64,000 nucleotides of DNA from the NCBI RefSeq assembly GCF_009914755.1, contig NC_060940.1. One strand, 5' to 3'. The position numbers were made by a program, and so were the translations under genes. The DNA is from the human T2T-CHM13v2.0 reference genome, Homo sapiens. Below the pieces are notes generated by a model that was given only the letters and a program-made list of their open reading frames with translations, was not told where the DNA came from and searched no databases. Each line of letters starts with the position of its first letter. The stretch's first letter is position 1. Of the stretch, positions 13,135 through 16,100 are shown piece by piece.

Positions 13135-16100
13135 GGCAACGCGGTGGACCTGGGCCAGATGAGCAGCTTCTACATTGGCCTGTGTTCCCGCCTCCACTGC
13201 AACATTTTCTCCTACCACTACTCTGGCTACGGTGCCAGCTCGGGCAGGCCCTCCGAGACGAACCTCTACGCCGACATCAACGCCGCCTGGCAGGCCCTGC
13301 GCACCAGGTGAGGGCGACCCCGGGCGCAGCTCAGCCTGGGCACACCCGAGAGGGGACCAGGCCGGGGGCCAGGGGCCGGGGGGAGGGGCGGGCTTCCCTG
13401 GGAGGAAGGTGGGCGGCCCTGCAGGAGAGGAGCCACAGTGGACGCATGCTGCCAGAGAGCCGGACAGGTGAGCTCAGGCATGCGGGTGCTGCCTCCACAT
13501 GGCTGAGGTGTGGCCAGGAGGTCCCCCCACACCCTGGCCTGTGGAGCCAGGCTCCCTGGGATCCCCTGGCCTGAGGACAGGAAGGGGCTGAGCTTGTCAC
13601 AGGGGCGTGGACACCACCTGGCGGGAGGGGGTGGGTGGTGTCAGGGGGTCTGTGCATGTGTGGCTGGGAGCCCACGGGCTGAGGCCGCACTTGGGGCCAG
13701 GTGAGGCGAGGCTGCTGCATCGAGGTCCCAAGGCCTGGCCCATGAGGCCCCGTGGCTGTGGAGCTCAGCCATCCCGGGGCAGGGCCTGCAGGGTCAGGTG
13801 CAGACCCCCAGCACACACCTGAGGTCTCGGCCAGCTTCGATTCCAGATCCAGCCCTCCTAATCATCCAGGTCCCCAGCCCTGCGCTTGCCTGGGCCCTTC
13901 ACTGGTGTTTGAGCACCACCCGGGCCAGTGCTGCTCTGGACTAGAAGACCCGCGTGGGCCTCTGGGGGCCTTTCCTGCTCACCACCCGCTGGGGCTGTCT
14001 CGTCCTGGCCCTGCCCTGCCCAGCCCAGTGGTCTGACCCGCTCCTGCAGGGGCCAGGCGCAGCTCTGAGAAGTCAGAGGCCCTGGGAGGTGGGGTCCTCG
14101 TTGCCTTGGAGATATCCCAGGCAGTCCCTGCTGTGGGCGTGGGAGCTGGGTCCCCTGGCACCACCCTGGCTCTGGGGGCCTCCCGGCAGTGTGGGGCGCC
14201 GAAACCAAGCACCACTTCATGCAGCTTCCTGGACCCCCTCCTGTCTCTACTGCCCGGGGCACTGGCAGAGTCACACCCCCCATGGCCAGCTCTGAGCTCT
14301 GTCTACTCTGCCGTCTGTCCTGCTGTCGCTTTGTCCTGCAGGATCCTCAGCCCAGAGCCGTGAGGGGGAGGCCAGATAGCGCTCAGGGCCTCTATGGAGG
14401 ATGTGTCTTGTTTGATTGTCTGAGTGGTGACATCTAGGTGGCAGCTGGGGGCTCCTGCCTGGAGCAGGTGACAGGGCTGGGCTGGCTCAGCACACTACTG
14501 GCCTTGGCTGCCAGGGAGCAGGCCAGGGAGGCTGAGGCAGAGCTGCAGCCACAGGCACAAGCCAGGCAGCATCCTTTGGGGCATGGGTGAGCAGTGAGCT
14601 GTGGAGTGCTGCCAGGAGGCTGGGATTCCAGGCCAGGGAGGGAGACAGCCCTGCTGGTGGAGTCCGAATGCCAGCCAGACGGGACGCACACCTGCCCATG
14701 CTCCTGCCTTGCAGGAGGGCATCTGCCTGGCATCAGAGCCTGGAGCTTGTGGGAGGAGAGTTCTGGGGTCTCGGCATCGACAGGGTGGCAGGTGGGTCCC
14801 GCGTGGTTGGGACTGGGCATGAGGAGGCCTTGGGACTGGTGCTGGGTCAGCTGGGCCAGGGGCCGCACACCAGTGACCTGGGAGTGGGGGTGGCCCTGGG
14901 TGGGAGCTGGTGGTGCTGAGGTGGCGGAGGACTTGTCCACTCCCAAGGGAAGGCACTGGTGGGAGGAGATGCTGCCCCCGCAGCCACCACCCTCGATGTT
15001 GACCTGGGTTGGGCTGGCAGCTCATTGGGCATGGGACTCTGAGAGTCCAAAATTGGGTGGAGACATCTGGGGACACAGCTGCCTGAATTCCTCATGGCCA
15101 AGGGGGTAGGCAAGGGCTGCAGGGAGGAAGAGTGTACCCTGTCCCGGCCAGTGCACCAGGAAGAGCTTTCTAACCTGGGCAGGAAGGCGTGAAGCATTCA
15201 GGATGTGGGAGGCCACACAGTTCCCAGTGTGCGCCTAGGGGTGACCAAGAGGAGGAGAGGTGCCAGGGCTTCCCCTACCCTAGCCTGAGGGGGACTCCCT
15301 AGCCAGGATCCAGCAGATCCTGGCTAGGAAACGCCAGTGAACCATAGTGGCAGGGAACAGGACCAGGCCGCCGGCTTCGCCCACCGCTGCGGTGTTGGGG
15401 GGCTTGGGGGTGGCCCTTGAGACTGGTGTGGAGCCTGGGCCTGACCAACTGACTTGGCTGAGCGGGGAGACTGGAGAGTCGCATCCGGAGCTGGGCCCGG
15501 GGACGCCCGCTGGCAGGAGGGGTGCGCGCGCGTTGGAGGCCTAGGCTGACCCTGCTCAGGTGCCGCCAGGTACCGCATCAGCCCGGACGGCATCATCCTG
15601 TACCGGCAGAGCATCGGCACGGTGCCCACCGTGGACCTGGCCTCGCGCTACGAGTCCGCCACGGTGGTGCTGCACTCGCCGCTCACCTTGGACCTGAGCG
15701 TCGCCTTCCGGACACCAAGACCTACTGCTTCGATGCCTTCCCCAAGTGAGCAGGCTGGGGCGGGGACGGGGGCGGGGGCGGAGCGGGGCGGGGCCCGGGC
15801 CGGGCGAGGTCTCACCCGCCCCACGCCCCTCCCGCAGAATCCAGAAGGTGTCCAAGATCACGCCGCCCGTGCTCATCATCCAGGACACGAAAGACGAGGT
15901 GATGGACTTCTCGCACGGGCTGGCGCTCTCCCAGCGCTGCCCCAACGCCGTGGAGCCGCTGTGGGTGGAGGGCGCCGGGCACAAAGACATCCAGCTCTAC
16001 AGCCAGTACCTGGAGCGCCTGCCCGCTTCATCTCCCAGGAGCTGCGCAGCCAGAGCGCCTAGCGGCCGCCAGGGCCCCAACCGGCCGGACCTCAGCAATA

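What the first reader, a model, noticed from the sequence alone, without database searches (positions are those of the whole stretch)
13135..16062. Apparent excess of CpG transversions in the ABHD17A pseudo-exons
Against the recalled ABHD17A protein, many replacements need a transversion at a CpG. CpG>CpC: 13216 (D>H), 15574 and 15604 (G>R), 15842, 15932 and 15992 (E>Q). CpG>GpG: 15883 (H>Q) and 15904 (I>M). CpG>ApG: 15985 (N>K). CpG transitions (e.g. D>N, S>L) are few, and the exons remain CpG-dense. Methylated pseudogenes normally decay mainly by CpG>TpG/CpA. Inference: the copy largely escaped deamination but met a CpG-directed transversion process such as demethylation- or abasic-site-linked repair, or error-prone copying.
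Basis: partly seen in the sequence, partly recalled or inferred. Interest (0 to 1): 0.7.

Follow-up and report, generated by a model that had tools for sequence, protein, structure and literature searches.

The report
CpG-island-like decay of ABHD17A retrocopy
The odd-looking surplus of CpG transversions in this ABHD17A pseudogene is real, but it comes from a shortage of the usual CpG transitions in CpG-island-like DNA, a pattern already described genome-wide.

Summary
On the chr16/chr15 lineage, CpG sites took 43 transitions and 40 transversions. In the coding pseudo-exons the count is 5 against 16.

The surplus is relative, not absolute. Between the chr16 and chr15 copies, the transversion rate per CpG site is 8.9% in the ABHD17A piece and 8.9% in 22 kb of flanking duplicated DNA (OR 1.0, CI 0.63-1.59). 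The transition rate is 11.1% against 28.2% (p=1.6e-10). Transitions per CpG site fall as CpG density rises (flanks 28%, CpG-poor intron 16%, CpG-island-like parts 8%). Transversions stay at 7-11%.

The ratio for the whole piece matches the published spectrum for CpG islands (53% transitions; PMC2640414).

Verdict:
- "Escaped deamination" is supported.
- A locus-specific transversion process is not needed.
- The pattern is already known, so interest is low.

In passing: the ABHD17AP copies are retrocopies of partly spliced RNA.

The parts
13135..16299 (+). ABHD17AP7: a 5'-truncated copy of the last three coding exons, both intervening introns and the 3'UTR of ABHD17A. It ends at the parent's polyadenylation site.
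   Evidence: Homology to the chr19 parent starts at about 13135 and ends just past the ATTAAA signal. The flanks are unrelated to chr19. Distance to the parent is 8.9%.
13135..13307 (+). Pseudo-exon a, truncated at its 5' end.
   Evidence: CpG o/e is 0.72. Holds 13216 D>H.
13308..15569 (+). Retained large intron: GC-rich but CpG-poor.
   Evidence: GC 0.67, CpG o/e 0.28. CpG ts 32, tv 22 over 177 sites.
15570..15745 (+). Pseudo-exon b. It has a 1-bp deletion shared with the chr15 copies and a 3-bp deletion.
   Evidence: CpG o/e 0.98.
15746..15837 (+). Retained small intron. It is precisely absent from the chr1 and chr22 retrocopies.
15838..16062 (+). Pseudo-exon c (coding part), with a 1-bp deletion near its end.
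Evidence: CpG o/e 0.76.
16063..16292 (+). 3'UTR with the ATTAAA signal at 16270-16275.
16293..16299 (+). Short A run, the likely remnant of a poly(A) tail.
   Evidence: The younger copies carry runs of 8-15 A at the same point, while the parent continues with unrelated sequence.
15350..16230 (.). CpG-island-like block covering pseudo-exons b and c, the small intron and most of the UTR.
   Evidence: 881 bp, GC 0.71, 79 CpG, o/e 0.72.

Best explanation
ABHD17AP7 is an old, 5'-truncated, intron-retaining copy of ABHD17A, most likely a retrocopy. It was carried into the chr16p11/chr15q11-13 segmental duplications. Its pseudo-exons are CpG-island-like DNA, and the inference is that this DNA stayed largely unmethylated in the germ line. 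Methylation-dependent CpG>TpG deamination therefore hardly acted on them. The ordinary CpG transversion rate continued at the same per-site rate as in neighbouring DNA; it runs about 5x above non-CpG sites and is biased to C>G. The outcome is a CpG ts:tv ratio near 1 for the whole piece, which is the known CpG-island spectrum. The more extreme 5:16 in the coding pseudo-exons is partly chance and selection of the finding.

Shown: the counts, the per-site rates and the CpG-density gradient. Inferred: germ-line hypomethylation and the chemistry behind the transversions.
For: 1. Same-depth comparison of the chr16 and chr15 copies. CpG tv per site is 32/361 = 8.9% in the piece and 52/585 = 8.9% in the flanks (OR 1.0, p=1). 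CpG ts per site is 11.1% against 28.2% (OR 0.32, p=1.6e-10).
2. Gradient with CpG density. CpG-island-like parts: ts 7.8%, tv 7.3%. CpG-poor intron: ts 16.1%, tv 11.2%. Flanks: ts 28.2%, tv 8.9%. No transversion contrast is significant (p=0.42-0.57).
3. Exons against intron across the whole tree. Tv per site is 14.3% against 12.4% (p=0.72). Ts per site is 4.5% against 18.1% (p=0.0005). The exon CpG ts rate is about the intron's non-CpG G/C ts rate (4.3%).
4. Sequence criteria. The block 15350-16230 has GC 0.71 and o/e 0.72. The large intron has o/e 0.28.
5. Published baseline (PMC2640414, Table 1, passage read). At CpGs inside CpG islands, 53-54% of substitutions are transitions and 46-47% transversions, with C/G above C/A. 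Outside islands, 76-81% are transitions. Our piece has 43 of 83 transitions: p=0.83 against the island value and p=2.5e-6 against the non-island value. The flanks at 165:52 are 76% transitions.
6. The younger ABHD17A retrocopies at four other loci also show a low ratio (43 ts to 22 tv over 185 events). The tendency therefore travels with the sequence, not the locus.
Against: 1. The coding pseudo-exons (5 ts of 21) lie below even the CpG-island baseline (binomial p=0.008) and below the exons of the younger copies (8:5, p=0.038).
2. Non-CpG divergence is lower in the piece (2.7%) than in the flanks (4.4%). Normalised by it, CpG transversions are 1.62x the all-flank value (p=0.06) and transitions 0.64x (p=0.036). 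Against the nearest flanks the values are 1.15x (p=0.66) and 0.68x (p=0.15). A modest true rise in transversions is therefore not excluded.
3. C>G against C>A at CpG is 12:4 in exons and 22:30 in flanks (p=0.043), so the transversion mix does shift.
4. Methylation was not measured.
5. The 153 changes shared by chr16 and chr15 could not be polarised at non-coding sites, because no primate outgroup is held.
Confidence: 0.7

Rival explanations
1. A real, enhanced CpG transversion process acts on this CpG-dense block. TET oxidation of 5mC, glycosylase removal and bypass of the abasic site give mainly CpG>GpG. This is 'process 9' of Seplyarskiy et al., running above the local baseline.
For: Exon CpG tv are 12 C>G to 4 C>A against 22:30 in the flanks (p=0.043). 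The exon ts:tv of 5:16 is below the island baseline (p=0.008). The normalised tv rate is 1.62x the all-flank value (p=0.06). One CpG (15931/15932) was hit by independent transversions in the chr15 and chr16 lineages. The published process spikes at CpG islands (PMC9217108, passages read), and 5hmC sites show 1.43-fold more C>G (PMC4161303, abstract read).
Against: The raw per-site tv rate is identical to the flanks (OR 1.0) and, if anything, lower in the CpG-island-like parts (7.3% against 8.9%, p=0.57). There is no exon/intron difference (p=0.72). Against the nearest flanks the normalised ratio is 1.15 (p=0.66). The p-values near 0.01-0.05 come from a finding picked for this very pattern.
Confidence: 0.2
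2. GC-biased gene conversion between paralogous duplications removed CpG>TpG (strong-to-weak) changes and let C<->G changes through. This is the reading offered for the segmental-duplication spectrum by Vollger et al.
For: The locus lies in a multi-copy duplication: four chr16 copies 0-0.4% apart and two chr15 copies. Published SD SNVs show +27.1% C<->G and -7.6% CpG mutations (PMC10172114, passages read). C>G exceeds C>A at CpG (27:13).
Against: On the polarised chr16 branch there are 51 strong-to-weak changes and 8 weak-to-strong, which implies an equilibrium GC of 0.25 against a present 0.67. The copy is losing GC, not being held up. The flanks belong to the same duplication and keep a 3.2:1 ratio, so being in a duplication is not what sets the piece apart.
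Confidence: 0.05
3. Errors of reverse transcription or other error-prone copying at the time the copy was made.
For: The copy ends at the parent's poly(A) site and is 5'-truncated, so an RNA intermediate is likely.
Against: Four of the nine named sites, and 14 of 40 CpG transversions, arose on the chr16 branch after the split from chr15, long after insertion. The five younger retrocopies have CpG ts:tv of 2:1, and the youngest has only 14 private changes in about 3 kb.
Confidence: 0.02

Closest known systems
CpG-island substitution spectrum (Nakken et al. 2009, BMC Genomics, PMC2640414, Table 1)
   Same: At CpGs, transitions and transversions are about equal and C/G exceeds C/A. Our piece has 43 ts to 40 tv, and 27 C>G to 13 C>A. 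The flanks match the paper's non-island value (76% transitions).
   Different: The coding pseudo-exons alone are more extreme (5 of 21 transitions). This is a pseudogene fragment, not an annotated regulatory island.
Germ-line mutational 'process 9': CpG transversions from active demethylation (Seplyarskiy et al. 2021, PMC9217108; Supek et al. 2014, PMC4161303)
   Same: CpG>GpG exceeds CpG>ApG in CpG-dense, presumably hypomethylated DNA.
   Different: The published process shows a raised CpG transversion rate at islands. Here the per-site rate is not measurably above neighbouring CpGs (OR 1.0, CI 0.63-1.59).
Segmental-duplication SNV spectrum (Vollger et al. 2023, PMC10172114)
   Same: The locus is in high-copy duplications. 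There are more C<->G changes and fewer CpG transitions than the usual picture.
   Different: The flanks of the same duplication do not share the skew, and the chr16 branch shows no GC-conserving bias. The published effects (+27%, -7.6%) are far smaller than the contrast here.
Semi-processed (intron-retaining) retropseudogenes (category recalled, no paper read)
   Same: A poly(A) tail at the parent's cleavage site, target-site duplications and precise loss of some introns in the five younger copies. The window's copy is 5'-truncated.
   Different: The window's copy keeps both introns, and no target-site duplication could be found. Its RNA origin rests on its 3' end and on the example of its younger relatives.

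Membership tests
CpG island (sequence criteria recalled: at least 200 bp, GC at least 0.5, CpG o/e at least 0.6) | Length, GC content and observed/expected CpG | tested here: met
   15350-16230 is 881 bp with GC 0.71 and o/e 0.72. Exons a, b and c have o/e 0.72, 0.98 and 0.76. The large intron fails at o/e 0.28.
CpG island | Unmethylated in the germ line | not testable with these tools
   No methylation data are held. The only indirect evidence is the low CpG transition rate.
Process 9 (CpG transversions, active demethylation) | CpG>GpG commoner than CpG>ApG | tested here: met
   Exons 12:4, whole piece 27:13, flanks 22:30.
Process 9 (CpG transversions, active demethylation) | CpG transversion rate per site raised relative to surrounding DNA | tested here: not met
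   8.9% against 8.9% (OR 1.0, CI 0.63-1.59). CpG-island-like parts are 7.3%. Normalised by non-CpG divergence, the ratio is 1.62 (p=0.06) or 1.15 (p=0.66).
Process 9 (CpG transversions, active demethylation) | Association with hypomethylation and hydroxymethylation | not testable with these tools
   No epigenomic tracks are held.
Segmental-duplication mutational spectrum with GC-biased conversion | Lies in a duplication of at least 1 kb and at least 90% identity | tested here: met
   Four chr16 copies at 99.6-100% and two chr15 copies at 95%. Collinear homology with chr15 runs over window 7752-27401 and beyond.
Segmental-duplication mutational spectrum with GC-biased conversion | Bias that keeps G and C (weak-to-strong favoured, strong-to-weak disfavoured) | tested here: not met
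   The chr16 branch has 51 strong-to-weak and 8 weak-to-strong changes, giving an equilibrium GC of 0.25.
LINE-1-type retrocopy | Ends at the parent's polyadenylation site with an A tail | tested here: met
   Homology ends just after ATTAAA, and A7 lies at 16293-16299. The younger copies carry runs of 8-15 A there.
LINE-1-type retrocopy | Target-site duplication | tested here: inconclusive
   None was found for the chr16/chr15 copy. Direct repeats of 16, 15, 14, 11 and 10 nt flank the five younger copies, but the two shortest are A/T-rich and no chance expectation was computed.
LINE-1-type retrocopy | Introns removed | tested here: not met
   The window's copy keeps both introns. The chr1 and chr22 copies show exact loss of the upstream intron, and the chr17 copy matches the parent's upstream exon directly next to the piece, though its junction was not read. 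The chr1 and chr22 copies also lose the small intron. All copies keep the 2.2-kb intron.

The most novel reading that the evidence does not exclude
The CpG-dense 3' block (15350-16230) of this gene-body fragment became an orphan CpG island after it was dropped into AT-rich pericentromeric duplications. Active TET/glycosylase demethylation has held it unmethylated in the germ line. The C>G-biased CpG transversions (12 C>G to 4 C>A; 16 tv to 5 ts, below even the CpG-island baseline) are the mutational scar of that upkeep. If so, such retrocopies would be natural reporters of demethylation-coupled mutagenesis, free of selection.
Probability: 0.18. Interest if true: 0.4.

Novelty: already known. 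Interest (0 to 1): 0.15.

Why it matters
The finding is a clean, selection-free local example of a known rule. CpG transition rates track methylation and CpG density, while CpG transversion rates do not. In CpG-island-like DNA the two therefore become about equal.

It warns against reading a low CpG ts:tv ratio in a pseudogene as a special mutagenic event unless per-site rates and flanking controls have been checked.

It would matter more only if copy-resolved methylation and outgroup data showed a truly raised CpG>GpG rate at this non-regulatory fragment.

Tried and rejected
- GC-biased conversion as the main cause: rejected on the 51:8 strong-to-weak excess on the chr16 branch.
- Reverse-transcription errors: rejected on branch placement and on the younger retrocopies.
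- APOBEC-type TpC context: read by eye.
- Misremembered parent, or variant residues being ancestral: rejected.
- Alignment artefacts: the skew survives removal of the 37 events near gaps.
- A burst of transversions on the shared branch: considered. From 16 non-synonymous and 9 synonymous shared exon changes, I estimated by hand that most shared exon changes lie on the pseudogene side. That removes the apparent burst, but the estimate is rough.
- Methylation evidence in print: a search for ABHD17AP names found eight papers. One lists a candidate imprint control region over ABHD17AP4 on chr22. Its supplement held no entry for ABHD17AP7.
- No primate or other outgroup genome is held, so the shared branch stays unpolarised at non-coding sites.

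Full report
WHAT IS THERE

A search of the window's own genome with 13133-16261 found 12 full-length relatives:
- four chr16 copies, including the window; one of them, inverted on chr16, is identical over 3129 nt
- two chr15 copies
- one chr17 copy
- two chr1 copies
- two chr22 copies
- the parent gene on chr19 (L008, minus strand)

Pairwise distances give two groups. The chr16 and chr15 copies are 5% apart and 8-9% from everything else. The chr19 gene and the chr17, chr1 and chr22 copies lie within 1.2-3.4% of each other.

Homology of the window to chr19 starts at about 13135, inside an exon. It ends just past the ATTAAA signal at 16270-16275, and the flanks are unrelated to chr19. The copy keeps both introns. 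It has frame-breaking deletions.

THE NINE SITES

At 15604 the chr17 copy is an exception and shares the window's base. With codons starting at 13135, the replacements are exactly D>H, G>R (twice), E>Q (three times), H>Q, I>M and N>K.

Four sites are specific to chr16: 13216, 15883, 15904 and 15932. Five are shared with chr15.

Paralogous exons on chr15:78.6 Mb and chr9:84.0 Mb were also compared. I recall these as ABHD17C and ABHD17B, but no call named them. They carry the parent's residue at 8 of the 9 sites, and D where the parent has E at the 15842 site. Only the chr15 paralogue was examined for 13216. So the parent was remembered correctly, and the pseudogene states are derived.

FULL COUNT

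Method. I took the consensus of the six younger sequences as ancestral and assigned 292 substitutions to branches: 80 to chr16, 48 to chr15, 153 shared ("stem"), and 11 where all three differ. The stem cannot be polarised at non-coding sites. The 92-nt intron was left out of this count because four of the six younger sequences lack it.

CpG ts:tv by branch:

| Branch | CpG ts | CpG tv |
|---|---|---|
| chr16 | 17 | 14 |
| chr15 | 7 | 6 |
| stem | 19 | 18 |
| all three differ | 0 | 2 |
| total | 43 | 40 |

CpG ts:tv by region:

| Region | CpG ts | CpG tv |
|---|---|---|
| coding pseudo-exons | 5 | 16 |
| 3'UTR | 6 | 2 |
| large intron | 32 | 22 |

Of the 40 CpG transversions, 27 are C>G and 13 are C>A. 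After removing the 37 events within five columns of a gap, the exons are 5:14 and the intron 26:21.

The nucleotide count confirms the skew all the same.

IS IT AN EXCESS OF TRANSVERSIONS OR A DEFICIT OF TRANSITIONS?

The chr16 and chr15 copies sit in a larger shared duplication: window 7752-27401 and 29722-36127 align collinearly to chr15. This gives flanks of the same age at the same loci.

Counting a site as CpG if either copy has CpG there:

| Region (chr16 vs chr15) | CpG sites | ts | tv | ts per site | tv per site |
|---|---|---|---|---|---|
| Flanks | 585 | 165 | 52 | 28.2% | 8.9% |
| Whole ABHD17A piece | 361 | 40 | 32 | 11.1% | 8.9% |
| CpG-island-like parts of the piece | 218 | 17 | 16 | 7.8% | 7.3% |
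| CpG-poor intron of the piece | 143 | 23 | 16 | 16.1% | 11.2% |

- The ts:tv ratio of the piece differs from the flanks (p=0.0015).
- The transversion rate per site does not differ (OR 1.0, p=1, CI 0.63-1.59).
- The transition rate per site differs strongly (OR 0.32, p=1.6e-10).
- No transversion contrast in the split is significant.

Across the whole tree, exon and intron CpGs have the same transversion rate (14.3% against 12.4%, p=0.72). Exon CpG transitions are 4.5% against 18.1% (p=0.0005). That is about the level of non-CpG G/C transitions.

A caveat cuts the other way. Non-CpG divergence is lower in the piece (2.7%) than in all flanks (4.4%; 1-kb bins range 1.9-5.8%). Normalised by it:

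| Comparison | CpG tv ratio | CpG ts ratio |
|---|---|---|
| Piece vs all flanks | 1.62 (p=0.06) | 0.64 (p=0.036) |
| Piece vs nearest flanks | 1.15 (p=0.66) | 0.68 (p=0.15) |

A rise in transversions of up to about 1.6-fold is therefore not excluded.

WHY TRANSITIONS ARE FEW

The block 15350-16230 is 881 bp with GC 0.71, 79 CpGs and o/e 0.72. Pseudo-exon a has o/e 0.72. These values meet the usual sequence criteria for a CpG island, which I recall rather than take from a call. The large intron has o/e 0.28.

The simplest reading is that the dense parts stayed unmethylated in the germ line and so escaped methylation-dependent deamination. This is an inference, because no methylation data are held.

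GC-biased conversion does not explain it. The chr16 branch has 51 strong-to-weak and 8 weak-to-strong changes, an equilibrium GC of 0.25.

Copying errors do not explain it either. Many of the transversions are younger than the chr16/chr15 split. Private and shared changes in the six younger sequences, the parent included, show 43 CpG transitions to 22 transversions over 185 events, after dropping 32 of 217 derived states that matched the outgroup. The youngest copy has 14 private changes.

COMPARISON WITH WHAT IS KNOWN

- Nakken et al. 2009 (PMC2640414; Table 1 and passages read). At CpGs inside CpG islands, 53-54% of substitutions are transitions and 46-47% transversions, with C/G at 27-29% and C/A at 18-19%. 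Outside islands, 76-81% are transitions. Our whole piece (43 of 83) fits the island value (p=0.83) and rejects the non-island value (p=2.5e-6). The flanks (165 of 217, 76%) match the non-island value.
- Seplyarskiy et al. 2021 (PMC9217108; passages read). They describe a germ-line component of CpG transversions that spikes at CpG islands and correlates negatively with methylation. They attribute it to active demethylation through abasic sites, giving CpG>GpG more often than CpG>ApG.
- Supek et al. 2014 (PMC4161303; abstract read). They report 1.43-fold more C>G at hydroxymethylated sites.
- Vollger et al. 2023 (PMC10172114; passages read). They report more C<->G changes and fewer CpG mutations in segmental duplications.

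The pattern here is an instance of it, not a new process.

WHAT REMAINS SLIGHTLY ODD

- The coding pseudo-exons alone (5 of 21 transitions) lie below the island baseline (p=0.008).
- They also lie below the exons of the younger copies (8:5, p=0.038).
- The C>G to C>A ratio at CpG is 12:4 in exons against 22:30 in flanks (p=0.043).

These are small numbers from a finding chosen for this very pattern. I treat them as weak support for some process-9 contribution, not as an anomaly.

VERDICT

- The first half of the interpretation (escape from deamination) is supported.
- The second half (a special CpG-directed transversion process) is not required by the per-site rates.
- The pattern is already known. 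Interest is low.

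Noticed in passing
L007 (chr17), L009 and L011 (chr1), L010 and L012 (chr22); compare window 13135-16299: The five younger ABHD17AP copies look like independent retrocopies of partly spliced ABHD17A RNA. Each has a run of 8-15 A at the parent's cleavage site. Each has its own flanking direct repeat (16, 15, 14, 11 and 10 nt, about 3.72-3.79 kb apart); the two shortest are A/T-rich and weak on their own. The chr1 and chr22 copies show exact loss of the upstream intron; for chr17 only the adjoining BLAST match was seen. 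The chr1 and chr22 copies also lose the small intron. All keep the same 2.2-kb intron.
   Followed up: partly
window 15931-15932: The same parental CpG was hit by two independent transversions. On the chr16 lineage G>C at 15932 gives E>Q. On the chr15 lineage C>G at 15931 gives Y>stop.
   Followed up: no
window 15689-15697: Four substitutions fall within 9 nt and are shared by the chr16 and chr15 copies. This looks like one complex event rather than four point mutations. Overall, 33 neighbour pairs within 3 nt occur among the 153 shared changes.
   Followed up: no
window 7752-27401: Non-CpG divergence between the chr16 and chr15 copies varies from 1.9% to 5.8% per kb. It is lowest in and next to the ABHD17A piece. 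Local conversion or rate differences are possible.
   Followed up: no
window 13133-16261 vs L002 (chr16:33140850-33143978, minus strand): An inverted chr16 copy about 414 kb away is identical over all 3129 nt. Two further chr16 copies differ by 0.4%.
   Followed up: no
window 13133-16261: The chr16 branch carries more changes than the chr15 branch (80 against 48, p=0.006). Part of this is an artefact: private changes of the two chr15 copies were removed by taking their consensus, while the window's own were kept.
   Followed up: partly
window 18419-31952 vs chr15 loci L022-L025: This stretch of the window matches the fetched chr15 region in both orientations, so the chr15 locus holds an inverted duplication of it.
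   Followed up: no
L018 (chr14:67255365-67255453): An isolated 89-nt match (90%) to the last part of the ABHD17A 3'UTR on chr14.
   Followed up: no
ABHD17AP4 on chr22 (not in the window): A published map of candidate imprint control regions lists ICR_1358 over ABHD17AP4, and several candidates lie near HERC2P4 and TP53TG3 copies on chr16. There is no entry for ABHD17AP7 (PMC9665137; passages and one supplement searched).
   Followed up: partly
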